Sequence record: PZ386976.1
Reading direction: 5' to 3' (one strand)
DNA: 64,000 nt
Source: a phage
The notes under the pieces were generated by a model. That model was not told where the DNA came from. It searched no databases and was given only the letters and a program-made list of their open reading frames with translations. Made by a program: the position numbers and the translations under genes. Positions 39,101 to 61,131 of this stretch are shown piece by piece (the stretch's first letter is position 1; each line of letters opens with the position of its first letter).

Positions 39101-39886
39101 ATGGGTATTGTAAAAATCATCAATGGTGATATCTTTGCAGCATTTGATAAAGGTAAGTTTGACGTCATTGGTCACGGTTGCAACTGTATGAATTTAATGG
39201 GTGCAGGTATCGCTGACAAGATTTCTAAACTTTACCCAAAAGCATATGAGACTGATACAGAAGTTTATCTATATGCAGGCGGTATAGGCCACAAACCCTG
39301 TGAAAATTTACTGGGTAATTTCTCCGTAGCACGTTTAAAACAAGGTCGTATAGCTAACCTTTACACTCAGCTTAAGACTGGTAAAGATGCCAGATACAGT
39401 GCTTTAGAGTCATCTTTGAAACAGCTTAACAGATACTGTGAAGTCAACCAGTTGAAGAAGGTTGGTCTACCTATGATTGGTGCAGGTATCGGTGGGCTAG
39501 ACCCTCAAGCCGTCACAGTTATCATTAATCAGGTGATGAAGAGTGTAGATGTGTATCTTTATGTCTACGAAGGAGAGATGTACCACAAGTTACGCTCAGG
39601 TTGGAAGAACTACTGTGAACCAGAATACTTTGCAGGTGTAGTAGTGTTCACTAATGATGCAGTTACCCTCTTCAGACGAAGAAAAGGTAAGATACATCAA
39701 AGTAACCCTCCGGTTGAAAAGATGTCTCTAAGTAACGCTCTAGTTACCCACCTGTCGAAGAGCAGTCACAGGATTGCAGTAACATTTGGCAGTGATGCAG
39801 ATGCTTACATCTATGCAAGAACTGATGAGGATATCGAGACGGTTTTCTCTTCACCAGAGCTTACCTTCTTAGACGCAAAGAACTAA
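39101..39886 (+). CDS. macrodomain protein (putative ADP-ribose binding/hydrolase)
   Basis: macrodomain-like glycine motifs VIGHGCNCMNLMGAGIA and PMIGAGIGGL; extra C-terminal ~100 aa. Confidence 0.55.
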   Translation: MGIVKIINGDIFAAFDKGKFDVIGHGCNCMNLMGAGIADKISKLYPKAYETDTEVYLYAGGIGHKPCENLLGNFSVARLKQGRIANLYTQLKTGKDARYSALESSLKQLNRYCEVNQLKKVGLPMIGAGIGGLDPQAVTVIINQVMKSVDVYLYVYEGEMYHKLRSGWKNYCEPEYFAGVVVFTNDAVTLFRRRKGKIHQSNPPVEKMSLSNALVTHLSKSSHRIAVTFGSDADAYIYARTDEDIETVFSSPELTFLDAKN

Positions 39887-39954
39887 GAAACTTCGTAGTA
39901 TATTCACAATAGACTAAGCCTTTCTTATCTGGTAAATTTTTCAGGTAAGGAGGG

Positions 39955-40140
39955 CTTTTTCATTTCAGAATTGTGCAGGTAGAGTTCTGTAGAGAAATCT
40001 ATAGAGAAAATTTTGAACTCCAAAGAGAAAATTCATTTTCAAACTGTGCAGGTAATCTCCAAAGAGCTTTTCCATTTTCAAAACGTGCAGACCCCACTCA
40101 GGTCGGGCAAGAAAAATCATTTTAGAATTGTGCAGGTAGG
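39955..40140 (+). repeat. four direct repeats of (cattttca)NNNtgtgcaggta, iteron/operator-like
   Basis: tgtgcaggta at 39972, 40045, 40129 and variant cgtgcagacc at 40084, spaced 40-75 bp, in ORF-free region before small-gene array. Confidence 0.4.
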
Positions 40141-40393
40141 TGGGTGTAGGTGGGGCTGTCGCCATTTCTCACAAGGCTACCACATATGAAAATAAAAGTC
40201 AACAGAAAAATTTGTAGCGGATTGAAAAATAATTCTTGATTGTAGTTCTGTTTTGTGGTAGTCATGCGCGCCCGTTTCATTCCATTTTTGCAAAAATATT
40301 TTTAAAATTTTTTATTGACTCTTTGAACGGGTTTTTATAGTATTTGCATCAGACGGGCAATCAAGCCCACTTCCTAAACTGGAGAATCTAAAA

Positions 40394-40600
40394 ATGCTTT
40401 ACAGTCGTGAATTGATGGTTACAACTAACGTTAACACAAAGGTAAAACGTTTTTACATGCAAATTTGTGGCGTATGGTCTAGAATATCAGAGGCTGACTA
40501 TTGCAACTATGTAGGAACAGCTATAGAATCTAATTGCTACCTTACAAGAAACACTAAGAACTTTATAAGACAGACAGCAATTTACTACTACGATAAATAA
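40394..40600 (+). CDS. small hypothetical protein (array ORF 1)
   Basis: 68 aa, RBS ggaga. Confidence 0.4.
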   Translation: MLYSRELMVTTNVNTKVKRFYMQICGVWSRISEADYCNYVGTAIESNCYLTRNTKNFIRQTAIYYYDK

Positions 40601-40690
40601 AAAGTACTTTACAGGGGGCTTATAAGGCTGTACAGTAAGCCCCAGATAAAGAGCTTTACCACATTAACCCTTAAACTAGGAGATTCTAAA

Positions 40691-41074
40691 ATGGCATATC
40701 GCGCACCTAAATTCATCAATAAAGACAACTTTCGCAACGCACTGGAGAAGTCACTTGATGAGAATTTTAAAGGCAACGTTATTGTTGTTCACTCGTTTAA
40801 TTTCAAGTATGATATCAACGGGAATAAAATCAACCATTACACGGCAACCATGATAGATGGTACACTATCAAGTGAAAAAGCCATTTTGCATGCACTTGCT
40901 GGACGTGGTAAAAACCTGATAAAATGTGATAAGAGACGTTATCAGGGTGGCGCATATGGTTATGATGATGCTGTTTATCATCTTGAAAATATGGGCTATC
41001 AAGTAGAAAAAGCTGGAGCGTCTCAAATAATCGGTAGTGATGGTTACGTAACTATCTTCAAAATTAACAAATAA
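40691..41074 (+). CDS. small hypothetical protein (array ORF 2)
   Basis: 127 aa; C-terminal KINK encoded within repeat cassette. Confidence 0.45.
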   Translation: MAYRAPKFINKDNFRNALEKSLDENFKGNVIVVHSFNFKYDINGNKINHYTATMIDGTLSSEKAILHALAGRGKNLIKCDKRRYQGGAYGYDDAVYHLENMGYQVEKAGASQIIGSDGYVTIFKINK

Positions 41075-41159
41075 AGTACTTTACAAGGGGCTTATAGTTC
41101 GATAAAGTAAGCCCCAGATAAAGAGCTTTACCACTCAATCCTAAATTGGAGAACTAAAA

Positions 41160-41453
41160 ATGGCTATTATCAAAAACGTTGTAATTGCTGCAAAAACTCG
41201 TGATGACGCTCGCGTTATGGCTAAAAAGTTATGCGGGAAAGTGGTTGACAACGGAAAACAATCTGCTGTAAGGTGGGGCGTGAAGGCTGATAAACAGTTG
41301 AAGTTAAAAAATTCACCGATAAACCTTTTTACATGTGTAAACACTATCGGGAAGACAACTGTATACACGAAAAAGGCATACATTAGACGCGTAGCATTAA
41401 CATCCCCCATTCGTACAATGAGAAGTTATGCAAAGCTGAAAATTAACAAATAA
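41160..41453 (+). CDS. small hypothetical protein (array ORF 3)
   Basis: 97 aa basic. Confidence 0.4.
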   Translation: MAIIKNVVIAAKTRDDARVMAKKLCGKVVDNGKQSAVRWGVKADKQLKLKNSPINLFTCVNTIGKTTVYTKKAYIRRVALTSPIRTMRSYAKLKINK

Positions 41454-41537
41454 AGTACTTTACAGGGGGCTTAAAAGTTGATATCTTAAGCCCCAGATAA
41501 AGAGCTTTACCACTCAATCCTAAACTGGAGATTCAAA

Positions 41538-42050
41538 ATGAAGACTGTAGACGCTACTTTTGAAGTTGTAAAAGAAAAATTCACTATTATTTATGAAGCG
41601 GTAAATTGCTACGAAGCAAGCCATAATCTTGATAATTGGAAGTTTACAGATGACCATCAAGGCGGCGTGACTGTTAAAAATCCTAACTGTCAGCATAATG
41701 AATTTAAATATGCAATCCCTTTACATTACAGCCTTAAACAGCTTTCTAGTGACTATGCAAAACAAGGCCGGGAAAATCCATCAAAAGAGGCTTACGCAAG
41801 CTTACAGAAAGAACTAGAAAGAGATTTAGAGGCTTCAGAGTACAACCTTGCCGCGAAAGTTGTCGATGCAAACGGTAACACGGTTTTAGAAAGTTTTTAT
41901 CTTGGTTATGCTTTCGATTGGTGCTATCGTGACGGCGATGATTTAGAGGATAGACTAAAAGAAGAGGTGAACAATTCAGACGCAGAAACTGAAGTATTAG
42001 AACGTTTGGAATCGTTGAAAGACTCAGTGATGAATATCTTTAAGAACTAA
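41538..42050 (+). CDS. hypothetical protein (array ORF 4)
   Basis: 170 aa. Confidence 0.45.
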   Translation: MKTVDATFEVVKEKFTIIYEAVNCYEASHNLDNWKFTDDHQGGVTVKNPNCQHNEFKYAIPLHYSLKQLSSDYAKQGRENPSKEAYASLQKELERDLEASEYNLAAKVVDANGNTVLESFYLGYAFDWCYRDGDDLEDRLKEEVNNSDAETEVLERLESLKDSVMNIFKN

Positions 42051-42141
42051 ATAGATTTCTTTACACGGGGTTATCAAGCTGGTAGGATAGCCCCAGATAA
42101 AGAGATTTATCAAATAAAGCCCTTAAACTAGGAGATTCAAA

Positions 42142-42438
42142 ATGAAATTATCAAATAAAGTTCGTGAAAATCTAAGCAAGTTACTAAACAAAATTGATTT
42201 CATTGAAACATCAAGAAATAATCATGATGTTATGGAATGGTTGCACGGCAAAATAAAAGGCCGTCGTGTAGTGATTTGCTTATGGAATAGCTGCAGGGAG
42301 TATAAAAAACCTGTATTGCAAGTCAATATTTATGATGACACCTTTAAAAGTCCTGTAAAGTCTAAAAGCGATTTATTAGAATCCTATGAGATAACTGTAA
42401 ATGGTAAAGTGTCACGTAAAGAGGAAACACCATGCTGA
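42142..42438 (+). CDS. small hypothetical protein (array ORF 5)
   Basis: 98 aa. Confidence 0.4.
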   Translation: MKLSNKVRENLSKLLNKIDFIETSRNNHDVMEWLHGKIKGRRVVICLWNSCREYKKPVLQVNIYDDTFKSPVKSKSDLLESYEITVNGKVSRKEETPC

Positions 42439-42764
42439 TGACTGGTATCACTGCAATCATTGCCATTTTCGCGCTCTATAAGGCATATAAAGCCTATAAT
42501 CTAGCAAATAAGGCAATCACGCAGCAGGTTAGCAATAGCCTTGTAGAGAGCTTTCTAGAGCGCCTCAGTGATGAGCAAATAAAGCGGCTAGAGATGAGCT
42601 TCAGATATAAAGCGAAAACCTATCAGATAAGTGACATCTTCAAAGATGATTTTCAGTTAGTCGATGATTATAATTCACTGATAAATGCTTTAAATATCAG
42701 TGACTTAAAAGACTACTACGCTGTAATTGTTCAAGAATTGAGCAAACGAAAACAAAGTGTTTGA
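42432..42764 (+). CDS. small membrane protein (array ORF 6)
   Basis: 110 aa with N-terminal hydrophobic helix. Confidence 0.4.
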   Translation: MLMTGITAIIAIFALYKAYKAYNLANKAITQQVSNSLVESFLERLSDEQIKRLEMSFRYKAKTYQISDIFKDDFQLVDDYNSLINALNISDLKDYYAVIVQELSKRKQSV

Positions 42765-42854
42765 CACTGGTTTTTAGATAGATTAAATTACACATCAACG
42801 GGGAGGTAATAACCTTCCCCACTAAATAAAGTCCTTAAACTAGGAGAGTCTAAA

Positions 42855-43127
42855 ATGTATACTACTAACAATGGTCGTACTTTAAATGTAACTTTACGTC
42901 ACTATGTAGACGGTGTAATGCACTTTGAGGATTTACGGGCTGAACAACATATCTTAGATTGGCAAGTAGCAGGACTCCAAAAAACTGCTACGGGATATGG
43001 TAAAAAGATTCCAACCAGTTGGAAAGTACACTACGAAGGACGTTTGCGCAGAATTTATCAAGATGTATGTAGTAATAGCGCATCAAGTTACATCATAGTA
43101 AAAGGTAAAAAACTGCACTTAGTATAA
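42855..43127 (+). CDS. small hypothetical protein (array ORF 7)
   Basis: 90 aa. Confidence 0.4.
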   Translation: MYTTNNGRTLNVTLRHYVDGVMHFEDLRAEQHILDWQVAGLQKTATGYGKKIPTSWKVHYEGRLRRIYQDVCSNSASSYIIVKGKKLHLV

Positions 43128-43212
43128 AGTGCTTTACATGGGGCTTAAAAGTCTGTAAAGTAAGCCCCAGATAAAGAGCTTTACCACTAAATCCTAAATT
43201 GGAGATTCTAAA

Positions 43213-43617
43213 ATGGCTATTAACAACCGTGAATTATCAATCTTAAAAGCACGTTTGACCGTTAACCGGATTAATGTTATTACGTCATCAGCACCGGACG
43301 AAACATTACACAACATTATCGGGAAGATTCAAAGCGTTATCTTAGACGTTGAAAATGTAAAAAGCTCATTGGCTGACGTTGCAGCAGGTATCACGCTAGA
43401 CGGCGCACAATATGAAATGGCTGACATGTTAGGCAAATCAAAGATAATGAATAAAGAGCTTGATTTAAAAATGTTTCGATTTGCCGTGAAAGTGTGGCTA
43501 TCCGTCGAGTATGACGCCAATTTTGCAATCGCTGATTTCTTTGCCACTTGGTTACAACGTAATTTGACAAATCACGATTTTCGTGATGTCTGTGATGCAA
43601 TTTATGCAGAACTCTAA
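43213..43617 (+). CDS. hypothetical protein (array ORF 8)
   Basis: 134 aa. Confidence 0.45.
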   Translation: MAINNRELSILKARLTVNRINVITSSAPDETLHNIIGKIQSVILDVENVKSSLADVAAGITLDGAQYEMADMLGKSKIMNKELDLKMFRFAVKVWLSVEYDANFAIADFFATWLQRNLTNHDFRDVCDAIYAEL

Positions 43618-43719
43618 AAATTTTATTGACACTGGTTTTTAGATAGATTAAATTACACATCAACGGGGAGGGAATGACCTTCCCACTAAATAAAGTCCTT
43701 AAACTAGGAGATTCTAAAA

Positions 43720-43923
43720 ATGGCTATTATTAATGGCTTAACCATTGAAACTACACACATCAAAGATATTAAAGTTGGTGATATAGTCCTTTCCCACGGC
43801 GTAGAAAAAACTGTCACTGCAAAGGATATCAAAGAGGATTCTTTCATGGGTAGGACTCTCTTCGGTGATTCTTATTGCTTAGGTTATCTTGCAGTTTTAA
43901 AAGTTGTCAAAAATAACAAATAA
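43720..43923 (+). CDS. small hypothetical protein (array ORF 9)
   Basis: 67 aa; C-terminal NNK in repeat cassette. Confidence 0.4.
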   Translation: MAIINGLTIETTHIKDIKVGDIVLSHGVEKTVTAKDIKEDSFMGRTLFGDSYCLGYLAVLKVVKNNK

Positions 43924-44009
43924 AGTACTTTACAAGGGGCTTATAGTTCGATAAAGTAAGCCCCAGATAAAGAGCTTTACCACTAAATCCTTAAACTAGG
44001 AGATTCAAA

Positions 44010-44576
44010 ATGAAATGCTATCACGGCACTACTCTGAAAAACTTTGTAAACCTGCTTAAAGGTGGCGACAAGCCGGAAGGTATCTGGAACTGCTCTTACA
44101 TGGATGATTGTTTTTACGTTTACCCGATGGATAAGATTATCAAGACGGAATGCCTGGAAGATGAAGAAGCCTCTTACATCCGTGAACGCTGCATTCAAAA
44201 CGCTTTAGAGTCGGGGCTTATTACGGCAGCTTTCCAAATGGAAACGCAGGAAGTGATTGTAATTGAGATGGATATCCCAGAGGAAGAACTTGAGGACGAT
44301 TATTCTTGTGACAACATGAGCGAAATCGCCAGCTTTACCGGTTACTTTGATAAAGATTGGATTATTGGTATTCACTCAACGAAATTTAGTGCAATGTATG
44401 CGCCATTCTTTGTACCTGATACAACTAACCGAAATTTGGGATATATTGACGATGATTTGTTGAGTATTGCAAAAATTGTACAGAATAGCGGGGATACTTC
44501 TTCTTTGTTTTGTGACCTGCTGGATAAAATTACCGAGAATCTCACAGAGCGCAATCTAAGCGACTTTTTAGACTAA
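44010..44576 (+). CDS. hypothetical acidic protein (array ORF 10)
   Basis: 188 aa. Confidence 0.45.
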   Translation: MKCYHGTTLKNFVNLLKGGDKPEGIWNCSYMDDCFYVYPMDKIIKTECLEDEEASYIRERCIQNALESGLITAAFQMETQEVIVIEMDIPEEELEDDYSCDNMSEIASFTGYFDKDWIIGIHSTKFSAMYAPFFVPDTTNRNLGYIDDDLLSIAKIVQNSGDTSSLFCDLLDKITENLTERNLSDFLD

Positions 44577-44639
44577 GCAGTACAAAGACACTAATTTCCA
44601 ACTTAAGGCCCATACAGGGCCATTTAAAGGGCTTAAATC

Positions 44640-44873
44640 ATGCTTACAACCGTTTACCTTATCCTTTCTGTTTGTAATGGCCATTCATGTGACTTTAAAG
44701 GGCTTGAGGAGTTCACAGGAAGTAAAGAAAATACTATTCAAGTTTGCCAGATAGCAAGACAAGACTACCCCGCCAGTGACGACATTCAATGCTACTTTAA
44801 GACAGAAGATGAAGACGGAATCTATTTTGACAGCGTTGACGGTCAATATGAAATTATCATAGAAAAAGATTAG
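44640..44873 (+). CDS. small hypothetical protein (array ORF 11)
   Basis: 77 aa. Confidence 0.4.
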   Translation: MLTTVYLILSVCNGHSCDFKGLEEFTGSKENTIQVCQIARQDYPASDDIQCYFKTEDEDGIYFDSVDGQYEIIIEKD

Positions 44874-44909
44874 ACAAGCCTGATAAAAGTCTGTAAATTG
44901 TCAATCAAC

Positions 44910-44923
44910 GGGGGGGGGGGGGG
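44910..44923 (+). repeat. G14 homopolymer tract inside a cassette hairpin
   Basis: 14 consecutive G where other cassette copies have ggggagg(g). Confidence 0.6.
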
Positions 44924-44970
44924 TAACAACCTCCCACTACATAAAACCCTTAAACTAGGAGATTCAAAAA

Positions 44971-45312
44971 ATGGCTTATGTAACTGTAATTACCAATAAA
45001 CCGGATTCATCTTGGTCAACTCAAGTAAGCGACAAGATGTCACCTATGCAGTGCCTAAAATACTTTGAGCAATGGAATAAAGGCGAGGATGTAAGCCCCT
45101 TTCAAATAATGCAGATTATTCATGTAGACAATGAAGGGAAGAAAACGACTTTGAACAGTGAGTACTATGCAAGCCGCTTCGAAACGAGAAGTAAAGCAAT
45201 GAAGCTTCTACGTGAATCCGGTTATGCTCATATTGCCGCACTAATCTGGGATGACCTGCTAAAAAGTCAACGTATCAGCTATGTAAAGCCTGAAAAAATA
45301 TTCATCAGTTAA
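44971..45312 (+). CDS. small hypothetical protein (array ORF 12)
   Basis: 113 aa. Confidence 0.4.
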   Translation: MAYVTVITNKPDSSWSTQVSDKMSPMQCLKYFEQWNKGEDVSPFQIMQIIHVDNEGKKTTLNSEYYASRFETRSKAMKLLRESGYAHIAALIWDDLLKSQRISYVKPEKIFIS

Positions 45313-45531
45313 TCAATAACTTACAAAAAACTTTTAAAAAAGTGTTGACAATACCCCTTGACATTGGTAACTTTGTTCGAGGGGGTTTATCTAAAAGGGA
45401 TTCACTTAAAAGATTCTTTATAGATAAGCTTAAAAAATTGCTTGCAATCAGCTATCAAAACAAGTAAATTACTAATCAACGGGAGGGATGACCTCCCCAC
45501 TAAATAAAATCCTTAAACTAGGAGAGCCAAA

Positions 45532-46062
45532 ATGAACAAGTTTAAAGCTATCAACTTCATTCGTTCAAATGCTGTAATGTCAAAACCTGTAAAAGACACA
45601 TACGAATTTCGCTGCAATGGGGTACACTTTGCAACCATCACTAAGTCAGAAAACGGGGTTTATTACATTCATCGCCGTAATGTTTCTACTGTTGTAGTCT
45701 CTCACTTTATGCAAGCTGTAGCGGAATTATTACCATTATTCTTAGAGATTTATCTAGATGAGTGTAAAAACATTCGTAACCACGTTAAAAACCTTTTAAA
45801 CGGTTATAAAATGGCTTATGAACGTTCTATCAAGTCCTTAAACAAGTTCTATAAAGCCCCTATGAATACCGTTTCAATGGCTTACAGTGTAAGCGGTGAG
45901 TTGGTTAGCCTCTTCGAAGTGGAAGAAATCGAACTGCATGACTTGCGCCCTAGTGGTTACTCTAAGACACTGGGAGAAGGCTTATCTTTCAATATCAAGA
46001 ACTTAGAAAAAACTTTAAAAGATATTGAAAAAGATATTGACGAAACAATCAAAAATCTGTAA
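45532..46062 (+). CDS. hypothetical protein (array ORF 13)
   Basis: 176 aa. Confidence 0.45.
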   Translation: MNKFKAINFIRSNAVMSKPVKDTYEFRCNGVHFATITKSENGVYYIHRRNVSTVVVSHFMQAVAELLPLFLEIYLDECKNIRNHVKNLLNGYKMAYERSIKSLNKFYKAPMNTVSMAYSVSGELVSLFEVEEIELHDLRPSGYSKTLGEGLSFNIKNLEKTLKDIEKDIDETIKNL

Positions 46063-46141
46063 ATTGTCAATCAACGGGGAGGGAATGACCTTCCCCACTA
46101 AATAAAACCCTTAATCAACTTCCTAAACTGGAGATTCTAAA

Positions 46142-46390
46142 ATGGCTACTATCCGCGCAACCGTTAACGAATTTGGCTTCTACTCTCTGGACGTTAAATT
46201 TGACCTTGTAGGTACTGATAACGCCTTTGAAATGGTGAAAGGCCTTATCAGTCAGACCATCAGTGACTACAACCCCTCTGATGAATTCTGGAAAGAAACA
46301 AAACAGGAAGCTCTCAAAGAGGGTTATTCATACCACTACTGGGGTGAAAAAATTGTCTCCCTATACTACGACAAAGATGGCGCTAACTAA
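46142..46390 (+). CDS. small hypothetical protein (array ORF 14)
   Basis: 82 aa. Confidence 0.4.
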   Translation: MATIRATVNEFGFYSLDVKFDLVGTDNAFEMVKGLISQTISDYNPSDEFWKETKQEALKEGYSYHYWGEKIVSLYYDKDGAN

Positions 46391-48153
46391 TCGACGCAAC
46401 GGGGCTATTTAGCCCCAGATACCTTTACAGCCCCTTAAATGGGGCTTTTTTACGTCTATCAAATTCCTTTCCAGAATCTTAAAACCCACCTAACAAGTCA
46501 GAACTTTACCAATGATTCGATAGAATCTATCTCATACCTTAAAAAGCAATAACTCTATAGTCTACTCTATAGCCTTTTATCAAATCAACTTAAATATAAG
46601 CCCATAACCCGAAAGGGAAGGGCAACCACTAAAACGCTCTATAAAGCTCTATAACAGCCTTATCAACCTAACTTAATGGATTGCATTAACCCACCTTAAA
46701 AAGCTCTTTACAGGGCTTTATAGAGACTTAAAAGAATCTTATAAGGTTATAAGCTTTATTATCTCGTTAGCTATCTTGTGAACTACTAAAAAGGGCTATG
46801 AGATAGGACTCTATGAGGGGTAATTCATTACCTGAATCACTATCAAATCCTATTGTTATTGTCTTAAAAGTATGTTATATGGGTTTGAAAGTAGCTTAAA
46901 AGTTACGTAAATGCTAGCCCCCTTAACATTTTCTTAACAATTTCTTAACAAACCCTACATAGCTATGCTTGTTAGCCCCTTGTTAAATTTCTGTTAAGAC
47001 CACGTAAAAGCCTTGTAAGAGTCTTTGGCATAGCCTTAAAAGCCCCTGTAAAGCCCTATAAAGAGCTATCCATACAGTTGAGGGGTAAATACTAGGAAGA
47101 GGCTTAAAAGAGCCTATAAAGAGTTATAGAGAGCTTTTAAAAGGTATGTTTAAGGAATCACTAAGAAAGGAAAGGGAACGATAAGAGAAGAGAGTTGTGT
47201 TTGTAAACAACCACTGTGACCATGTTAATAGCTTGTTAAAAAGATTAAACACTTGTTAGAAACTTGTTAATTGTCTAACTGGTATTGTTACCAATCCCTA
47301 CAAAATAACTCTTAAAAATTAACTTGTTAGCTCTTGTTAGTCATCTGTTAAGATTCTGTAAAGACTATTCAGCAACTGTTAAGAAACTGTTACAACCTTG
47401 TTAGTTCTGTTAAGAAACTGTTAAGACCTTTGAAGAGTTGTTAAGAAGATGTGAGAATTGTTAAGAGATTGTTAAGGATATTTTAAAATTCTGCAAAGGG
47501 GATGTTACAGGGATGTTAAGGGCTACCAAGCAGATATACATCTTCTACAGATATTTTTGAGTTCCTTCAAAGACCCTAAAAAAAATGACTTGACAGTCCT
47601 ATTTTATAAAAATTTTAAGATTCTGAATAATTACCTATACAGCCTTTTAAAAATACAGGTAATAACAGGCTTATAAGATACCTTGTTAGTACCGTGTTAG
47701 ACCTTGTGAGATAAGGTCTGTAAAGATATTCCTGTTAAGTTTGTTAAAACAGTTTATATAGAGGCTTAGTAATACCTAGTGAACACCTATAGAGAGTGTC
47801 ATAGCTGACATGATGGGTTACTGTTAAGTAACACAGATAACCTAGAGATTAAGAGGTGTATAGGGGCTTCTAAGAGTGTGTAGAGAGATGGTTAAGGTGA
47901 TTGTATAGGTTGTTAAGAAGGCTTGTTAGAAGAGTGTTTAGAAGGGCTATACAGGGGGGCTATTAAGACCACTAGATAGTTACTAAGATACTATATAGTA
48001 CTATATAACTATATATATAGAGAGTAAGCTTAAGAAGGTTATTAAGAAGGATAGATATTTTATTCACATATGATGGTGACCCAGAGGTTGGGACAACCGA
48101 TGAAATTTTATAAAAATTAAAAAGCCCCCAATTAAGGAGGCTCTTAAGATATT
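46391..48153. repeat. ~1.7 kb ORF-free repeat region with dense (C/T)TGTTA(A/G) and CTATAAAGAG motifs
   Basis: no ORF of 60 aa or more on either strand; more than 25 copies of tgttaag/tgttaga/tgttagc, densest 47200-47530, plus ctataaagag-type repeats 46600-47150. Confidence 0.6.
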
Positions 48154-58196: not shown

Positions 58197-58222
58197 GGTT
58201 ACATAGAGTTTGAAAAGTTTAT

Positions 58223-58299
58223 CTCTGTTTAGCTCAGCTTGGTAGAGCGTTCCGTTTGGGGCGGTAAGGCCGGAGGTTCAAGTCCTCCAACAGAGACCA
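58223..58299 (+). tRNA. tRNA-Pro: tRNA-Pro (anticodon TGG)
   Basis: manual cloverleaf: acceptor ctctgtt/aacagag, anticodon loop ttTGGgg, T-arm ggagg-ttcaagt-cctcc, CCA encoded. Confidence 0.6.
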
Positions 58300-58316
58300 A
58301 ATTTAAAGGGGTTACT

Positions 58317-58673
58317 ATGAGATTTTTAAAAGAATGTCCAGTTCATGGTTTAACTGAACATAGCATTCATAAGAATGGTAACGCCGGTAATAGAGTAAAT
58401 TGTCTAAAATGTTGTGCATTAAGGACAAAACTTAGAGAGGATGCCAATAGGGAGAAAGCATACAAGTTTTATGGCGATAGTTGCAAAATTTGTGGCTATA
58501 ATAAATGTAAAAATGCTTTAGAATGGCATCACCTTAACCCAAACGAAAAAGAGAATACACCATCAAAAATTATGGGTGCATCTTGGGAAAAGGTTAAAAA
58601 AGAACTTGATAAATGTGTTTTGCTCTGTGCTAATTGCCACAGAGAGGTTCATAGTGGAATTACAACGGTTTAA
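58317..58673 (+). CDS. HNH homing endonuclease within tRNA cluster
   Basis: Cys-rich zinc-binding elements and HNH motif EWHHLNP...LLCANCHREVH; ORF 58239.. trimmed to MRFLKE because upstream part overlaps tRNA-Pro. Confidence 0.6.
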   Translation: MRFLKECPVHGLTEHSIHKNGNAGNRVNCLKCCALRTKLREDANREKAYKFYGDSCKICGYNKCKNALEWHHLNPNEKENTPSKIMGASWEKVKKELDKCVLLCANCHREVHSGITTV

Positions 58674-58674
58674 T

Positions 58675-58749
58675 GTCGTAGAAGGCAAATGGTTAGCCAC
58701 CTGACCTTCAATCAGTTGCTCGCAGGTTCGAATCCTGTCTACGACACCA
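58675..58749 (+). tRNA. tRNA, anticodon tentative (TTC, Glu?)
   Basis: acceptor gtcgtag/ctacgac, T-arm gcagg-ttcgaat-cctgt, CCA encoded; anticodon loop ccTTCaa has atypical C33. Confidence 0.45.
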
Positions 58750-58753
58750 GTTT

Positions 58754-58832
58754 TGACAGAAGACCAATTACAGCAAACTTAATCTTATTCATCTGAAGGT
58801 AAATCGGACAAAGAAGAGATTTGGTCTGGTCA
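58754..58832 (+). ncRNA. conserved bulged-helix module 1 (outer stem tgac/gtca, 5' AGA bulge, inner stem agaccaa/ttggtct, 3' G bulge)
   Basis: one of four copies with covarying outer stems; encloses AT-rich loop. Confidence 0.35.
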
Positions 58833-58840
58833 TTAAGAAT

Positions 58841-58917
58841 TGCGGGTATAGAGAAAGGGCGTCTCACATGTCTCATTAGCATGGTATCGGCAGGTTCGAC
58901 TCCTGCACCCGCCTCCA
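58841..58917 (+). tRNA. tRNA-Met/Ile2 (anticodon CAT), initiator-like unpaired 1:72
   Basis: acceptor (t)gcgggt/acccgc(c), anticodon loop ctCATta, T-arm gcagg-ttcgact-cctgc, CCA encoded. Confidence 0.5.
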
Positions 58918-58920
58918 ATT

Positions 58921-58986
58921 TTGCAGAAGACCGTATTCAGCAACAAACTACTTTTTGCGGATAAAAGAAAAAACACGGTCTGGCAA
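58921..58986 (+). ncRNA. conserved bulged-helix module 2 (outer ttgc/gcaa, inner agaccgt/acggtct)
   Basis: same architecture as module 1 with compensatory base changes. Confidence 0.35.
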
Positions 58987-58994
58987 TGTATTAA

Positions 58995-59071
58995 GGTTAG
59001 GAAGCACATAAGGTATGTGCGGTCGCCTGTTAAGCGAATGGCACAGGGTTCGAATCCCTGACTAACCGCCA
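58995..59071 (+). tRNA. tRNA-Asn: tRNA-Asn (anticodon GTT)
   Basis: acceptor ggttagg/actaacc, D-arm gcac-ataaggtat-gtgc, anticodon arm gtcgc-ctGTTaa-gcgaa, T-arm caggg-ttcgaat-ccctg, CCA. Confidence 0.7.
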
Positions 59072-59140
59072 AATTTAGGAGAGAAGCGATTGCTCACCGA
59101 TTTGTAAGGTGCAAGTCCTTAGCCTGAATAGAAATTAAAT

Positions 59141-59228
59141 GTGTCGTTATCCCGTAGATGGTAGCGGTGGGGACTGTAAATCCCTTGTCATTGAGACTCG
59201 GTAGGTTCGACTCCTACACGGCACACCA
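59141..59228 (+). tRNA. tRNA-Tyr: tRNA-Tyr (anticodon GTA), long variable arm
   Basis: acceptor gtgtcgt/acggcac, anticodon arm gggga-ctGTAaa-tccct, long variable arm, T-arm gtagg-ttcgact-cctac, CCA. Confidence 0.65.
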
Positions 59229-59233
59229 ATAAA

Positions 59234-59311
59234 GGTTATGTAGTTTAATTTGGTTAAAATACTCCCCTGTCACGGGAGATGATGAGGGTTCAAATCCCTT
59301 CGTAACCGCCA
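59234..59311 (+). tRNA. tRNA-Asp: tRNA-Asp (anticodon GTC)
   Basis: acceptor ggttatg/cgtaacc, anticodon arm ctccc-ctGTCac-gggag, T-arm gaggg-ttcaaat-ccctt, CCA. Confidence 0.7.
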
Positions 59312-59369
59312 ATTTTGAGAGGGCTATTTAGCCCCTCCCTTAAAGGGTTCTTACGAGTATCCTTTAAAG

Positions 59370-59451
59370 GAGCAGAAGACCAAATACAGCAAGAACGTAT
59401 GAAAATTTCAAGCCAATTTAATTTTGAAAAATTTAAAACTTGGTCTGGCTC
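59370..59451 (+). ncRNA. conserved bulged-helix module 3 (outer gagc/gctc, inner agaccaa/ttggtct)
   Basis: same architecture, compensatory outer-stem change. Confidence 0.35.
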
Positions 59452-59458
59452 AACAAAT

Positions 59459-59595
59459 TTACAGAAGACCGTTTACAGCAAAACTTAAACAATCTATTTC
59501 TCGGTAAAGAAAAGGCGAAGGTTCGATTCCTTCACTCGGCAGATGTCGAGTTGGTGTAATGGTAGCACTTAAGATGATAAACAACGGTCTGGTAA
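59459..59595 (+). ncRNA. conserved bulged-helix module 4 enclosing a circularly permuted tRNA-like domain; candidate Y-RNA-like RNA
   Basis: outer ttac/gtaa, inner agaccgt/acggtct; enclosed 59517-59568 has T-arm gaagg-ttcgatt-ccttc, 7-bp hairpin actcggc-agat-gtcgagt (acceptor-like) and D-arm-like gtg-taatggtag-cac in permuted order. Confidence 0.35.
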
Positions 59596-59736
59596 TTATC
59601 TTTGTAGATAAGTTATTAAGCTTACCTGTGAGTATGCGACCACAAAGGGTGAAAGGGTAAATTCTAGATTTAAACCCAAAAAGGCACATCGCTACAGACC
59701 TTAAGCAAGTCTGGGTAGCTTATCTACAAAGATAAT
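59595..59736 (+). ncRNA. long hairpin with perfect 18-bp stem enclosing ~106 nt
   Basis: attatctttgtagataag (59595-59612) is the exact reverse complement of cttatctacaaagataat (59719-59736); no ORF. Confidence 0.3.
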
Positions 59737-59741
59737 TTAAT

Positions 59742-59817
59742 GGAAGTGTAGCAGAATGGTGATGCGGCAGACTTTTAATCTGACAGGCGATGGGTTCGAA
59801 TCCCTCCACTTCTACCA
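59742..59817 (+). tRNA. tRNA-Lys: tRNA-Lys (anticodon TTT)
   Basis: acceptor ggaagtg/cacttct, D-arm gca-gaatggtga-tgc, anticodon loop ctTTTaa, T-loop ttcgaat, CCA. Confidence 0.6.
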
Positions 59818-59821
59818 AAAT

Positions 59822-59898
59822 GGTTCAGTCGCAGATAAGGTAATTCAAGGGTCTCATAAGACCTATGAATGTGGGTTCGATTCCCATCTGAACCTCCA
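59822..59898 (+). tRNA. tRNA-Met/Ile2 (anticodon CAT), tentative
   Basis: acceptor ggttcag/ctgaacc perfect, anticodon loop ctCATaa, T-arm gtggg-ttcgatt-cccat, CCA; D-arm irregular. Confidence 0.45.
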
Positions 59899-59900
59899 AT

Positions 59901-59975
59901 TGTGGGTTAGCATAAATGGTAATGCAAACGGCTGATAACCGTTAGAAGAGGGTTCGATACCCTCACCTACAACCA
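59901..59975 (+). tRNA. tRNA-Ile: tRNA-Ile (anticodon GAT)
   Basis: acceptor tgtgggt/acctaca, D-arm gcat-aaatggta-atgc, anticodon arm aacgg-ctGATaa-ccgtt, T-arm gaggg-ttcgata-ccctc, CCA. Confidence 0.7.
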
Positions 59976-59990
59976 ATTTCAATAAAGTTG

Positions 59991-60019
59991 TTGACATTGA
60001 GATGTGACTACTTTATAGT
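59991..60019 (+). promoter_or_regulatory. sigma70-like promoter inside tRNA cluster
   Basis: TTGACA, 17 nt, TATAGT; followed by ~200 nt ORF-free region before next tRNA. Confidence 0.5.
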
Positions 60020-60222
60020 AACCTTAGTTTTCGTTGCGTAGCGTCTATTTTGCAAATTTAAAATAAATGCAAACGACAATGTTTTTCTGGCAGTAGCTTG
60101 ATAGGCTAAACACCAGTGAGGTCTTCCAATCCCTCATCAAAGAATTTGGCGTACTAGCCCACGGTATGATTAATAAGGTGGGCATCTTTAAGTGCTTTCT
60201 GAGAGAGTCTTTAAAGATTAAT

Positions 60223-60299
60223 GCACCCTTAGTTCAATTGGATAGAGCAACGGTCTTCTAAATCGTTAGTTACAGGTTCGAATCCTGTAGGGTGTACCA
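60223..60299 (+). tRNA. tRNA-Arg: tRNA-Arg (anticodon TCT)
   Basis: acceptor gcaccct/agggtgt, D-arm gttc-aattggata-gagc, anticodon arm acggt-ctTCTaa-atcgt, T-arm acagg-ttcgaat-cctgt, CCA. Confidence 0.7.
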
Positions 60300-60441
60300 A
60301 ATAGTTAGCAGATTGCTTAGACGACCTTATCGGGTCTCCGTGTAAGGAGGTGGTCTGTATCTCATGTTTTCCAGAACATGTAAATAATCTGAGAAGGGGC
60401 TTTACAGTGTTGCGAAAATACGGTAAGCTTCGAATTATAGT

Positions 60442-60524
60442 ATGGGACGATGTTAAGACTCTAAGGCATGAGCAACGGCCTCCAAAACCGTTTCAAAGGG
60501 GTTCAACTCCTCCGTCCCATGCCA
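60442..60524 (+). tRNA. tRNA-like gene with oversized D region (possible anticodon CCA, Trp?)
   Basis: acceptor atgggac/gtcccat perfect, T-arm agggg-ttcaact-cctcc, CCA; candidate anticodon loop ctCCAaa; D region ~7 nt too long. Confidence 0.35.
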
Positions 60525-60537
60525 AAGTCTTATTAGG

Positions 60538-60625
60538 GGTAGGTAGCGGCTAATGGCAGCCAAACAGTCTTGAAAACTGTTGCCACTGTAGAGATACGGT
60601 GAGGGTTCGACTCCTTTACTTACCG
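60538..60625 (+). tRNA. tRNA-Ser: tRNA-Ser (anticodon TGA), long variable arm
   Basis: acceptor ggtaggt/acttacc, anticodon arm acagt-ctTGAaa-actgt perfect, long variable arm, T-loop ttcgact. Confidence 0.6.
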
Positions 60626-60882
60626 CCTAATAAGATTTAAAGCCAAGCTTCATTCGGATGTTGCTTTGGTATCCCTCGTGTATTGTCGTACACACTGATA
60701 AAGCACCTAGTAGGTGTCACGGAGAAGAGATAATATCAAGCTCTCCAAAGGTTCTAGTCACCGGATTAAACAAGGCTATGCAAAGACCTGTTTAGGTCTT
60801 TTTAGAGGGCTTCTAAGGTTATTACAGCTTGTTGTGGAACCTTGTTGCTTAGGTTCTTAGAAGTTCTCTAAAAAGATTTAAT

Positions 60883-60960: not shown

Positions 60961-60967
60961 AATTAAT

Positions 60968-61043: not shown

Positions 61044-61049
61044 AATATT

Positions 61050-61125: not shown

Positions 61126-61131
61126 ATTAGT

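What the first reader, a model, noticed from the sequence alone, without database searches (positions are those of the whole stretch)
40603..46390. Fourteen small ORFs each behind a repeated promoter/stem-loop/RBS cassette
Each gene is preceded by one of two ~90 bp cassette types. Type A has TTTACA, 17 nt, TAnnnT overlapping a conserved 8-bp hairpin stem whose loop varies; type B has TTGACA, 17 nt, TAAATT followed by a G/C hairpin. Both end in the same RBS, and the cassette start overlaps the last codons of the preceding gene (shared KINK/NNK C-termini). This resembles the promoter-early-stem-loop cassettes that shuffle small accessory genes in T4-type phages, so the region is a likely hyperplastic early island.
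Basis: partly seen in the sequence, partly recalled or inferred. Interest (0 to 1): 0.7.

Follow-up and report, generated by a model that had tools for sequence, protein, structure and literature searches.

The report
Promoter-hairpin gene cassettes in Felix O1-like phage
A 6-kb block of small unknown-function genes in a Felix O1-type phage is built from repeated promoter/hairpin/ribosome-site cassettes, and related phages have gained and lost whole genes exactly at these cassettes, the same gene-shuffling design first described in T4-type phages.

Summary
The window is a Felixounavirus (Felix O1-like myovirus). There are 13 credible ORFs inside 40603-46390, plus one just upstream. Eleven repeated cassettes (6 type A, 5 type B) and a separate lead promoter serve them; two ORFs (42432-42764, 44640-44873) have no cassette. 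Type A is more than an 8-bp hairpin. About 58 nt fold into a two-part hairpin (-21 to -25 kcal/mol) whose lower stem holds the upstream stop codon and the -35 box, with the -10 box in the loop. Across 144 distinct copies, TTTACA-N17/18-TAnnnT is kept in 143 and several stem pairs show compensatory changes. In type B a G/C hairpin starts exactly 10 nt after a TAnnnT box in 79/79 copies. Only 16/254 related genomes cover at least 80% of this locus, against 224/261 and 211/277 for equal-length control regions. Five deletions in relatives each leave a single hybrid cassette. The cassettes occur throughout Ounavirinae and nowhere else I searched. They meet every sequence-level criterion of the PeSL cassettes of T4-type phages. 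Promoter activity, hairpin function and mini-circle formation are untested. The Felix O1 genome paper listed the repeats without interpreting them. Verdict: a new member of a known kind, moderately interesting.

The parts
39916..39957 (+). Intrinsic terminator closing the upstream transcription unit; left boundary of the island
   Evidence: 17-bp stem followed by a T run. The homologous site is annotated as a terminator in AYO145A and listed as t13 in the Felix O1 paper.
40315..40393 (+). Lead promoter TTGACT-N17-TAGTAT (40315-40343) behind an A/T-rich tract, followed by a short GGGC...GCCC hairpin and the common RBS
40394..40600 (+). ORF W2, 68 aa, unknown function (phrog_5293)
40601..40690 (+). 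Type A cassette 1: promoter 40608-40636 (TTTACA-N17-TACAGT), two-part hairpin about 40601-40657, RBS
   Evidence: (-21.7 kcal/mol, z -3.4)
40691..41074 (+). ORF W3, 127 aa, unknown function
41075..41159 (+). Type A cassette 2: promoter 41080-41108 (TTTACA-N17-TAAAGT), two-part hairpin 41072-41130, RBS
   Evidence: (-21.6 kcal/mol, z -5.2)
41160..41453 (+). ORF W4, 97 aa, unknown function
41454..41537 (+). Type A cassette 3: promoter 41459-41487 (TTTACA-N17-TATCTT, with TG before the -10 box), hairpin 41451-41509, RBS
   Evidence: (-21.9 kcal/mol, z -4.1)
41538..42050 (+). ORF W5, 170 aa, unknown function
42051..42141 (+). Type A cassette 4, a variant with stem GGGGTTAT/ATAGCCCC and a 13-bp lower stem: promoter 42060-42088 (TTTACA-N17-TAGGAT), hairpin 42051-42110, RBS
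   Evidence: (-25.1 kcal/mol, z -6.4; minus strand -17.4)
42142..42764 (+). Two-gene unit W6 (42142-42438, 98 aa) and W7 (42432-42764, 110 aa), overlapping at ATGCTGA with no cassette between them
   Evidence: (the two genes always occur together)
42761..42854 (+). Type B cassette 1: promoter 42761-42789 (TTGACA-N17-TAAATT; the -35 box overlaps the W7 stop codon), hairpin 42800-42819, RBS
   Evidence: (-13 kcal/mol, z -3.6)
42855..43127 (+). ORF W8, 90 aa, unknown function
43128..43212 (+). Type A cassette 5: promoter 43133-43161 (TTTACA-N17-TAAAGT), hairpin 43125-43183, RBS
   Evidence: (-24.1 kcal/mol, z -3.2)
43213..43617 (+). ORF W9, 134 aa, unknown function
43618..43719 (+). Type B cassette 2: promoter 43626-43654 (TTGACA-N17-TAAATT), hairpin 43665-43684, RBS
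   Evidence: (-13.4 kcal/mol, z -4.3)
43720..43923 (+). ORF W10, 67 aa, unknown function
43924..44009 (+). Type A cassette 6: promoter 43929-43957, hairpin 43921-43979, RBS. It is identical to cassette 2 over 71 nt.
   Evidence: (-21.6 kcal/mol, z -6.3)
44010..44873 (+). Two-gene unit W11 (44010-44576, 188 aa, predicted ADP-ribosyltransferase fold) and W12 (44640-44873, 77 aa). The 63-nt spacer has a small GGCCC hairpin and no promoter.
44871..44970 (+). Type B cassette 3: promoter 44871-44899 (TAGACA-N17-TAAATT; the TAG is the W12 stop codon), hairpin 44910-44935 whose 5' arm is a run of 14 G, RBS
44971..45312 (+). ORF W13, 113 aa, unknown function
45313..45464 (+). Extra non-coding leader: TTGACA (45345-45350)-N17-TAACTT lying inside a CCCCTTGA...TCGAGGGG hairpin, followed by a second hairpin. 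A 41-aa GTG ORF called here is doubtful.
   Evidence: promoter annotated at this site in AYO145A; z -4.2
45442..45531 (+). Type B cassette 4: TTGCAA (45442-45447)-N17-TAAATT (45465-45470), hairpin 45481-45497, RBS
   Evidence: -12.3 kcal/mol, z -3.4
45532..46062 (+). ORF W15, 176 aa, unknown function
46037..46141 (+). Type B cassette 5: promoter 46037-46065 (TTGACG-N17-TAAATT; the -35 box lies inside W15 and the TAA of the -10 box is its stop codon), hairpin 46076-46096, RBS
   Evidence: (-15.2 kcal/mol, z -3.3)
46142..46390 (+). ORF W16, 82 aa, unknown function; last gene of the island
46401..46452 (+). A degenerate type-A-like hairpin (GGGGCTATTTAGCCCC followed by AGATAC), then the intrinsic terminator 46429-46446 with its T run; right boundary of the island
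   Evidence: (-26.7 kcal/mol, z -4.9)

Best explanation
The locus is a hyperplastic early-gene island of a Felix O1-like phage (Ounavirinae). It is built from modular units, each consisting of a regulatory cassette plus one or two genes of unknown function.

Each cassette is a composite of four parts:
1. An A/T-rich 5' end that supplies the stop codon of the gene in front.
2. A host sigma70-type promoter.
3. A G/C-rich hairpin at a fixed position relative to the predicted start site.
4. A common ribosome-binding module.

In type A the whole promoter lies inside a roughly 58-nt two-part hairpin. The -35 box is in the lower stem and the -10 box is in the loop. The predicted start, at about the A of CCCC|AGATAAAG, falls just beyond the 3' foot of the upper stem. 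The hairpin therefore exists only in RNA reading through from upstream. In type B the hairpin begins 2-3 nt after the predicted start, so it would also cap the 5' end of the cassette's own mRNA.

Inferred working:
- Every unit can be transcribed on its own by host RNA polymerase early in infection.
- The hairpins act on read-through RNA as attenuators, processing sites or stability elements. In type B they also act as 5' stabilisers.
- Because the cassettes are 60-100-nt direct repeats, up to 71 nt identical within one genome, homologous recombination between them deletes, inserts and swaps whole units without breaking genes or their expression signals.

What is shown and what is inferred:
- Shown on sequence: the anatomy, its conservation and covariation, the plasticity of the locus, and the cassette-bounded junctions.
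- Inferred: promoter activity, early timing, what the hairpins do, and whether recombination here is anything more than a passive consequence of the repeats.
For: Identity of the phage: the best matches are Felixounavirus genomes at 88-93% identity.

Repeats well beyond chance.

Type A promoter pattern in 144 distinct copies from 66 sequence sources (the window plus 65 fetched loci):
- TTTACA in 143 copies.
- Spacer of 17 nt in 132 copies and 18 nt in 11.
- TAnnnT in 143 copies. Positions 3-5 take all four bases, which is the sigma70 pattern sitting inside an otherwise variable loop.
- TG at -15/-14 in 82 copies.

Type B promoter pattern:
- TAnnnT lies exactly 10 nt before the hairpin in 79/79 copies.
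- The boxes at -35 are TTGACA, TAGACA, TTGATT, TTGACT or TTGCAA, all at N17.

Hairpins:
- Type A folds at -21.6 to -25.1 kcal/mol, z -3.2 to -6.4.
- 97.5% of alignment cells pair, against 32-57% when the partners are slid.
- Compensatory pairs in the upper stem: position 3 GC 133 / UA 10; position 5 CG 83 / UG 57 / UA 1; position 7 UA 116 / AU 27; position 8 AU 111 / UA 22.
- Compensatory pair in the lower stem: position 8 GC 116 / UA 17.
- Erwinia phage phiEa21-4 has GGTG...CACC.
- Type B hairpins fold at -12 to -15 kcal/mol, z -3.3 to -4.3.

The RBS mini-hairpin has only two alleles. They differ by a co-inserted T...A pair. There are 107 and 78 copies and no mixed forms, and both alleles occur in types A and B.

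Plasticity: 16/254 genomes cover at least 80% of the locus, against 224/261 and 211/277 for controls.

Gene content map of 18 genomes: the cassette type stays with the downstream gene, and whole units are present or absent.

Junctions:
- LF110P4 lacks W4-W10 and keeps one hybrid type A cassette.
- VpaE1 lacks W5.
- Felix O1 lacks W3-W4.
- Si3 lacks W10-W12.
- LF110P4 lacks W13 and W15.
Each junction is a single chimeric cassette.

The same loop allele sits in front of up to four different genes.

Expression: Felix O1 RT-PCR found ORFs 16, 20, 21 and 22 of this island maximal at 5 min.

The island has canonical terminators only at its two ends.
Against: - There are no transcription-start or RNA-end data for any Ounavirinae phage in the searchable literature.
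- The -10 boxes match TATAAT poorly (TAAAGT, TATCTT, TAAATT).
- In this A/T-rich DNA the generic promoter scan is barely enriched overall: 28 hits against 18.8 +/- 3.9 in shuffles.
- Felix O1 RT-PCR placed three island genes (ORFs 17, 19, 23) at 25 min.
- The hairpins lack a U tract, so they are not canonical terminators.
- Strand asymmetry of folding is weak: mean -22.1 kcal/mol on the plus strand against -21.2 on the minus strand, with 88 copies favouring plus and 56 favouring minus. An RNA role is therefore not proven over a DNA role.
- The covarying positions are inherited together within cassette alleles, so the number of independent compensatory events is small.
- The gene order is largely syntenic. 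The plasticity seen is mainly loss, retention and replacement of units along a common backbone rather than free shuffling.
Confidence: 0.72

Rival explanations
1. There is one polycistronic early transcript, and the cassettes are RNA-processing or stability sites. Transcription starts mainly at the lead promoter (40315-40343) and runs to the terminator at 46429-46446. The type A two-part hairpins (a lower stem of about 12 bp, a 3x3 internal loop, and an upper stem of 8-9 bp) are cut by a host double-strand-specific or 5'-end-dependent RNase. This would resemble the RNase III sites between T7 early genes (my own knowledge, not tested here). Cutting would yield monocistronic mRNAs with protective 3' hairpins. 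The embedded promoter-like boxes would be weak or secondary.
For: - About 20 paired positions with an internal loop, strongly more stable than shuffled sequence.
- Pairing is conserved, with compensatory changes.
- There are no internal canonical terminators, and terminators sit at both ends of the island.
- AGATAAAGAG just 3' of the upper stem is invariant.
- The predicted cut region and the predicted start site coincide.
- The -10 boxes are weak.
Against: - It does not explain why T, A and T of a TAnnnT hexamer are the only invariant loop positions, nor why they sit exactly 17 nt from TTTACA in 132/144 distinct copies.
- It does not explain why type B keeps TAnnnT exactly 10 nt before its hairpin in 79/79 copies.
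- The type B hairpin (6-8 bp) is far too short for RNase III.
- This reading is not exclusive of the best explanation: both could hold.
Confidence: 0.15
2. The cassettes are operator sites for a DNA-binding regulator. The inverted repeats (GGGGCTTA...TAAGCCCC, and the near-palindromic 12-mers TAAAGnnCTTTA on either side) are bound as double-stranded DNA by a phage or host protein. That protein shuts off, or switches on, all these promoters together.
For: - The stem arms are highly conserved while the loop varies, as in half-sites separated by a spacer.
- TAAAGTACTTTA is a perfect palindrome, and the exact motif is almost confined to the cassettes: 10 of 11 exact hits in the window.
- The repeats overlap -35, -10 and +1, where repressors usually bind.
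- Folding shows only weak strand asymmetry.
Against: - Compensatory changes keep pairing rather than sequence: UA/AU swaps at stem positions 7 and 8, GC to UA at position 3 in Erwinia phages, and CG/UG/UA at position 5.
- In the W6-type cassette the two outer elements are complementary to each other over 13 bp, but neither is a palindrome and they are not direct copies of one another.
- Outer half-sites about 45 bp apart would be an odd operator.
- No candidate regulator was identified.
Confidence: 0.07
3. The cassettes are integron-like, site-specific recombination sites. The roughly 58-nt imperfect palindromes at every gene boundary fold in single-stranded DNA and are recognised by a dedicated recombinase, as attC sites are, so that gene units move by an active mechanism rather than by general homologous recombination.
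For: - There is one imperfect palindrome per gene boundary, with a conserved unpaired 3x3 loop and one conserved mismatch.
- Unit-wise gain and loss occurs.
- The authors of the PeSL paper themselves drew the integron analogy and speculated about a stem-binding protein.
Against: - The inferred crossover intervals differ between events. They range from the hairpin region to the RBS/ATG, as expected for homology-driven exchange and not for a fixed cleavage point.
- Up to 71 nt of perfect identity between cassettes is enough for phage recombination systems.
- No integrase-like gene is annotated in the related loci I fetched; I did not search the window's own proteins for one.
Confidence: 0.03

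Closest known systems
PeSL (promoter-early stem-loop) cassettes of T4-type phages: RB49/phi1 (Arbiol et al. 2010, PMC2839356); PST/T4 and nt-1/KVP40 (Comeau et al. 2014, PMC4122927)
   Same: - A sigma70-like promoter with a 17-nt spacer.
- A GGGG...CCCC stem-loop that lies between or over the promoter boxes, or just downstream of -10.
- An A/T-rich 5' part that holds the upstream stop codon, and an SD at the 3' end.
- Total length of about 60-100 nt, in many copies concentrated in a hyperplastic region in front of ORFans.
- Indels between relatives that leave one chimeric cassette.
- The T4/PST promoter consensus TTTACW-N17-TAYWAT is close to type A here.
   Different: - The host phage belongs to a different subfamily (Ounavirinae), and I saw no sequence resemblance beyond the generic promoter boxes and G/C stem (by eye; no alignment was run).
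- Only two sharply defined cassette types occur here, with nearly fixed geometry.
- Type A is a two-part hairpin of about 20 bp that encloses the entire promoter.
- Both types share an RBS mini-hairpin.
- All copies sit in one co-oriented array bounded by terminators, rather than being scattered over several regions.
- Promoter, terminator and mini-circle activities were shown experimentally for RB49/phi1. None has been tested here.
RNase III processing hairpins between the early genes of phage T7 (own knowledge; not retrieved here)
   Same: - Intercistronic hairpins of about 20 bp, interrupted by an internal loop, in a co-oriented early operon transcribed by host polymerase.
- They would leave 3' hairpins on the upstream mRNAs.
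   Different: - The T7 sites do not contain promoters.
- Cleavage here is untested.
- Type B hairpins are too short for RNase III.
Integron attC gene cassettes
   Same: - One imperfect palindrome per gene boundary.
- Units of one or two promoter-proximal small genes are gained and lost as modules.
   Different: - Each unit here carries its own promoter.
- No integrase is evident.
- Crossover points vary, consistent with general homologous recombination.
Morons of lambdoid phages
   Same: Autonomous accessory-gene units with their own promoter.
   Different: - Morons have no conserved flanking repeat and usually carry a true terminator.
- They are thought to insert by illegitimate recombination, as discussed in PMC2839356.
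5'-terminal stabilising stem-loops of E. coli mRNAs such as the ompA leader (own knowledge)
   Same: The type B hairpin is predicted to begin 2-3 nt from the 5' end of its own transcript, the position at which such hairpins protect mRNA.
   Different: This is pure inference from promoter geometry. No half-life data exist.

Membership tests
PeSL cassettes (architecture-defined) | A sigma70-like -35 / about 17 nt / -10 promoter in the intergenic space | tested here: met
   - Type A: TTTACA-N17/18-TAnnnT in 143/144 distinct copies.
- Type B: TAnnnT in 79/79 copies, with TTGACA-like boxes at N17.
- All cassettes except 45442-45531 (TTGCAA-N17-TAAATT, read by eye) are picked up by the consensus scan.
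PeSL cassettes (architecture-defined) | A stable stem-loop, typically GGGG...CCCC, overlapping or adjacent to the promoter boxes | tested here: met
   - Folding energies and z-scores.
- Pairing conserved in 97.5% of alignment cells, with compensatory changes.
PeSL cassettes (architecture-defined) | The cassette spans from the stop codon of the upstream gene, in an A/T-rich stretch, to the SD and ATG of the downstream gene | tested here: met
   the stop codon lies within ...AAATAAAGTAC or within the promoter boxes themselves, and GGAG sits 7-9 nt before the ATG in 165/171 copies.
PeSL cassettes (architecture-defined) | Many copies concentrated in a hyperplastic region, in front of ORFans | tested here: met
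   - 11 copies within 5.8 kb and none elsewhere in the 64-kb window.
- Locus coverage 16/254 against 224/261 and 211/277 for controls.
- All proteins are of unknown function.
PeSL cassettes (architecture-defined) | Insertions, deletions and replacements between related phages are bounded by cassettes and leave a chimeric cassette | tested here: met
   Five junctions analysed, gene maps of 18 genomes, and loop alleles shared between non-orthologous positions.
PeSL cassettes (architecture-defined) | Strong promoter activity in vivo | not testable with these tools
   The only data are Felix O1 RT-PCR timing: ORFs 16, 20, 21 and 22 maximal at 5 min; ORFs 17, 19 and 23 at 25 min.
PeSL cassettes (architecture-defined) | The stem-loop terminates or attenuates upstream transcription | not testable with these tools
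   No U tract follows either hairpin, and no cassette scores as an intrinsic terminator. Function is open.
PeSL cassettes (architecture-defined) | Formation of excised mini-circles by recombination between neighbouring cassettes | not testable with these tools
   This needs inverse PCR or long-read sequencing of infected cells.
PeSL cassettes (architecture-defined) | Found in T4-type myoviruses (the group in which they were described) | tested here: not met
   The host phage is a Felixounavirus. The cassette occurs in Felixounavirus, Mooglevirus, Suspvirus and Kolesnikvirus only. This is a taxonomic limit of the original description, not an architectural criterion.
RNase III processing site (T7 early type) | About two helical turns of mostly double-stranded RNA, often with an internal loop | tested here: inconclusive
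   Type A has 19-22 predicted pairs with a 3x3 internal loop. Type B has only 6-8 bp. Rfam gives no match.
RNase III processing site (T7 early type) | Cleavage by RNase III in vivo or in vitro | not testable with these tools
   No data exist.
Intrinsic (rho-independent) terminator | A G/C-rich hairpin followed immediately by a U tract | tested here: not met
   The hairpins are followed by AGATAAAGAG (type A) or ACTAAATAAAG (type B). The scan finds plus-strand terminators only at 39916-39957 and 46429-46446, plus a weak 5-pair site at 44389-44403 inside ORF W11; none is at a cassette.
Integron attC cassette | A site-specific tyrosine recombinase acting at a fixed point of the folded site | tested here: not met
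   The inferred crossover intervals differ between junctions. No integrase is annotated in any related locus I fetched. The window's own proteins were not systematically searched for one.

The most novel reading that the evidence does not exclude
The type A element is a dual-coded signal: a host promoter written inside its own RNA-processing hairpin. In read-through RNA the roughly 20-bp two-part hairpin would be cut at the internal loop, next to the 3' foot of the upper stem. That is the same place where the embedded promoter initiates. Primary and processed mRNAs of each gene would then carry the same leader, and each upstream mRNA would end in a protective hairpin. This would make every gene unit transcriptionally and post-transcriptionally autonomous, and so freely exchangeable.
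Probability: 0.15. Interest if true: 0.65.

Novelty: new member of a known kind. Interest (0 to 1): 0.5.

Why it matters
PeSL-mediated modular shuffling has so far been documented only in T4-type phages. Finding the same design, built from unrelated sequence, across a second myovirus subfamily suggests a convergent and general answer to one problem: how lytic phages keep a fast-turnover pool of accessory early genes without breaking expression.

The Ounavirinae offer an unusually good test bed:
- More than 250 sequenced genomes carry natural cassette-bounded variants.
- The cassettes fall into two sharply defined types.
- Bas63 is a tractable K-12 phage with a genome-wide knockout map.

These phages (Felix O1 and its relatives) are also used for Salmonella and E. 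coli typing and biocontrol. It is therefore of practical use to know that 60-100-nt direct repeats make this block prone to deletion and exchange. It is also useful to know that at least one cargo gene looks like an ADP-ribosyltransferase.

Tried and rejected
- Rfam search of the island at E <= 1: the only hit was a chance sRNA match at the upstream terminator.
- Intrinsic-terminator reading of the hairpins: rejected, because there is no U tract and no scan hit.
- Generic promoter scan as evidence on its own: rejected as weak (28 hits against 18.8 +/- 3.9). The argument rests instead on position-specific conservation.
- Pfam, PHROGs, PADLOC and PDB sequence searches of the cargo proteins gave nothing usable.
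- Strand asymmetry of folding as proof of an RNA role turned out weak. I had expected it to be strong from the W6-type copy.
- Operator-site reading of the TAAAGnnCTTTA palindromes: considered and judged less likely, from the W6-type copies and the compensatory changes.
- Paralogous expansion of one gene: rejected, because every ORF falls into its own family.
- Literature: no Ounavirinae transcriptome or TSS map was found (one search was badly framed and wasted). The phiEa21-4 genome paper could not be read. The wV8 paper says nothing on promoters or repeats.
- The first IMG/VR pattern had the wrong spacing and found nothing. The corrected pattern found only contigs of Ounavirinae-like size.

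Full report
**What the window is.** A megablast of 40300-46500 finds 254 phage records. Nearly all are Felixounavirus or allied Ounavirinae, and the best matches are 88-93% identical: KEP2, bumzen, Mushroom, AYO145A and Bas63/JohannRWettstein. The window is therefore part of a Felix O1-like myovirus genome of about 87 kb. The finding lies downstream of rIIA/rIIB, pnk, the spanins and a macro-domain "phosphatase" gene (39101-39886). It is followed by a long non-coding stretch and a tRNA array.

**Checking the observation.** The repeats are real and far beyond chance.
- GCCCCAGATAAAGAG occurs six times exactly, only between 40.6 and 44.0 kb. With up to three mismatches allowed, 1.25 matches are expected by chance.
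- The RBS motif CTTAAACTAGGAGATTC gives 7 matches against 0.29 expected.
- The repeat finder recovers the cassette families (D1, D3, D7, D10, D14, D19).

Reading every intergenic space gives this order:
- lead promoter, then W2 (68 aa)
- A, then W3 (127 aa)
- A, then W4 (97 aa)
- A, then W5 (170 aa)
- A, then W6 (98 aa) overlapping W7 (110 aa)
- B, then W8 (90 aa)
- A, then W9 (134 aa)
- B, then W10 (67 aa)
- A, then W11 (188 aa), a 63-nt spacer, then W12 (77 aa)
- B, then W13 (113 aa)
- an extra leader plus B, then W15 (176 aa)
- B, then W16 (82 aa), then the terminator.

So there are eleven cassettes (six A, five B), not fourteen. Two genes have none. The "fourteenth" ORF is either W2, which starts before the stated coordinates, or a doubtful 41-aa GTG ORF. 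All six type A copies have TTTACA-N17-TAnnnT. All five type B copies have TAAATT preceded at 17 nt by TTGACA (two copies), TAGACA, TTGCAA or TTGACG. The shared KINK/NNK C-termini are real and reflect shared nucleotides (AAAAWTAACAAATAA).

The type A stem-loop is only the top of a larger structure. About 58 nt fold as follows:
- a lower stem of 11-13 bp, TAAAGTACTTTA pairing with TAAAGAGCTTTA;
- a 3x3 internal loop, CAN opposite AGA;
- an upper stem of 8-9 bp;
- a loop of 10-13 nt.

The energies are -21.6 to -25.1 kcal/mol, with z-scores of -3.2 to -6.4 against dinucleotide shuffles. The 5' strand of the lower stem contains the upstream stop codon and the -35 box. The loop contains the -10 box. 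The invariant AGATAAAGAG forms the 3' side of the internal loop plus the start of the lower stem's 3' strand.

The -10 box ends 6-7 nt before the 3' foot of the upper stem. The predicted start is therefore about the A of CCCC|AGA, and a transcript from this promoter would not contain the hairpin. Only read-through RNA would.

In type B the geometry is the other way round. A 6-8-bp G/C hairpin (-12 to -15 kcal/mol) begins exactly 10 nt after the -10 box, so it would sit 2-3 nt from the 5' end of its own mRNA.

Both types end in a small RBS hairpin (UCCU-N6-AGGA). It has only two alleles, CCTAAAYTGGAG (107 copies) and CCTTAAACTAGGAG (78 copies). They differ by a co-inserted T...A pair, and no mixed form occurs among 185 copies. 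Both alleles are found in both cassette types. The cassette is therefore itself modular.

**Conservation and covariation.** I fetched the locus from 17 relatives: 14 Felixounavirus, Suspvirus SUSP2, and Mooglevirus Mijalis and Sf13. I added Erwinia phage phiEa21-4 and 47 IMG/VR stretches.

Type A, 144 distinct copies:
- TTTACA is present in 143.
- The spacer is 17 nt in 132 and 18 nt in 11.
- The hexamer is TAnnnT in 143. Its three middle positions take all four bases, exactly the sigma70 pattern, inside a loop that otherwise varies freely.
- TG precedes the -10 box in 82.

Type B: TAnnnT sits 10 nt before the hairpin in 79/79 copies.

Pairing:
- On a MAFFT alignment of 66 distinct copies, 97.5% of cells form standard pairs, against 32-57% when partners are slid by 1-3 columns.
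- Structure-aware counts show compensatory changes in the upper stem at position 3 (GC 133 / UA 10, the latter including the Erwinia phage phiEa21-4 copies), position 5 (CG 83 / UG 57 / UA 1), position 7 (UA 116 / AU 27) and position 8 (AU 111 / UA 22).
- In the lower stem, position 8 shows GC 116 / UA 17.

Two caveats apply. These changes travel with cassette alleles, so independent events are few. The plus strand folds only slightly better than the minus strand (-22.1 against -21.2 kcal/mol on average; 88 copies against 56). I therefore treat "selected hairpin" as well supported, and "RNA hairpin on the plus-strand transcript" as the parsimonious reading that is not yet proven.

**Is the locus hyperplastic, and are the changes cassette-bounded?** Yes to both.
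- Only 16 of 254 matching genomes cover at least 80% of this 6.2-kb query in one piece, and none exceeds 95% identity. The matches break into 1172 places.
- Two control queries of identical length from the same window give 224/261 and 211/277 genomes at that coverage, in about 1.1 places per record.
- The gene map of 18 genomes shows a common backbone in which whole units are present or absent. Felix O1 lacks W3, W4, W10, W11 and W12. VpaE1 lacks W5 and has three extra genes. Si3 lacks W10-W12 and W15. Sf13 carries extra units. LF110P4 keeps only W3, W11, W12, x1 and W16.
- The cassette type stays with the downstream gene. W6-W7 and W11-W12 always travel as pairs.
- Five deletion junctions were compared with the nearest full-length relatives. 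Each consists of exactly one cassette whose left part matches the cassette of the left parent and whose right part matches that of the right parent. The inferred crossover intervals differ between junctions, from inside the hairpin region to the RBS/ATG.
- In the window itself the cassettes before W4 and W11 are identical over 71 nt. The LF110P4 genome looks like the product of recombination between precisely this pair.
- Identical loop alleles stand in front of up to four different genes, while orthologous positions in different phages carry different alleles. This is the signature of exchange between cassettes.

**Distribution.** The type A cassette is found in 289 phage records (1360 places), at about 79% identity in the Erwinia phages. 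A degenerate pattern scan of IMG/VR found it only on contigs of 54-94 kb, most of them 81-94 kb, consistent with the same phage group. One genome has up to 10 copies. phiEa21-4 also has a third cassette class, GGGGTTAT...ATAACCCC followed by GTCGAAAC.

**Cargo.** None of the 14 proteins has a Pfam match above threshold. All fall into PHROG families of unknown function. Nothing useful came from PADLOC or from PDB sequence searches.

**What it most likely does.** Every sequence-level criterion in the original description is met.

I infer three things:
1. Each unit has its own host-polymerase promoter. The position-specific conservation is hard to explain otherwise.
2. The hairpins act on RNA that reads through from upstream units, as attenuators, processing sites or 3'-end protectors. 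In type B they also act as 5'-terminal stabilisers.
3. The cassettes, being long direct repeats that carry a stop codon at one end and an RBS at the other, let homologous recombination remove, add or swap units cleanly.

The island has canonical terminators only at its ends (39916-39957 and 46429-46446). The internal hairpins lack U tracts, so "terminator" in the strict sense is not supported. Felix O1 RT-PCR placed ORFs 16, 20, 21 and 22 (W5, W9, W13 and W15) at 5 min and ORFs 17, 19 and 23 at 25 min. That is weak, partial support for early expression.

**Rivals.**
- A single polycistronic transcript processed at the type A hairpins is attractive. Their size and internal loop recall T7 RNase III sites (from my own knowledge). 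It may be true in addition to the best explanation, but it does not explain the promoter-specific conservation.
- Double-stranded operator sites are disfavoured by the compensatory changes. They are also disfavoured by the W6-type copy, whose outer elements are complementary to each other but are neither palindromes nor direct copies.
- An integron-like site-specific mechanism is disfavoured by the variable crossover points.

**Known or new.** The Felix O1 genome paper listed the 57-bp and 39-bp direct repeats that correspond to types A and B. It gave them no function and stated that temporal control of transcription was unknown. The AYO145A record annotates just two promoters in the island. 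The two PeSL papers treat only T4-type phages. In the searchable literature I found no paper linking the two. I could not read the phiEa21-4 genome paper.

I therefore file this as a new member of a known kind. It has the same architecture and the same apparent evolutionary role as PeSLs, in a different phage subfamily. Its particular features are the promoter-enclosing two-part hairpin, the two fixed geometries and the shared RBS mini-hairpin.

Noticed in passing
[not shown]
   Followed up: partly
window 39960-40139: Four direct repeats of about 23 nt (TCATTTYnRAAyTGTGCAGGTAR) lie between the upstream terminator and the lead promoter of the island. They look like binding sites or iterons; their function is unknown.
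   Followed up: partly
window 44910-44923: A run of 14 G forms the 5' arm of the type B hairpin before W13. Relatives have GGGGAGGG here. It may be a slippage-prone tract or a sequencing or assembly artefact.
   Followed up: no
window 45313-45464: The spacer between W13 and W15 holds an additional TTGACA-N17-TAACTT promoter enclosed in its own CCCCTTGA...TCGAGGGG hairpin, followed by a second stable hairpin (z -4.2). Some records call a 36-50-aa ORF here, which I doubt.
   Followed up: partly
window 46401-46422: GGGGCTATTTAGCCCC followed by AGATAC looks like a decayed type A hairpin. It sits directly before the true terminator, as if a former cassette had lost its gene.
   Followed up: no
window 46470-48150 and 1350-3160: These are long non-coding stretches rich in repeats. 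The first has CTCTATA / TAAAGCTCT-like motifs downstream of the island, annotated as repeat_region in several relatives. The second has 95-196-nt repeats near the window start. Several database genomes are opened in or near the first stretch.
   Followed up: no
window 58200-63600: There appears to be a large tRNA gene array, inferred from about a dozen repeated T-arm/acceptor-like sequences ending in CCAA. I did not run a tRNA scan.
   Followed up: no
L018 (Erwinia phage phiEa21-4) 4650-7620: The Erwinia relative has, besides a diverged type A (GGTG...CACC), a third cassette class with GGGGTTAT...ATAACCCC followed by GTCGAAAC, and a different RBS (AAAGGAAT). It also has a largely different gene set at the same locus.
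   Followed up: partly
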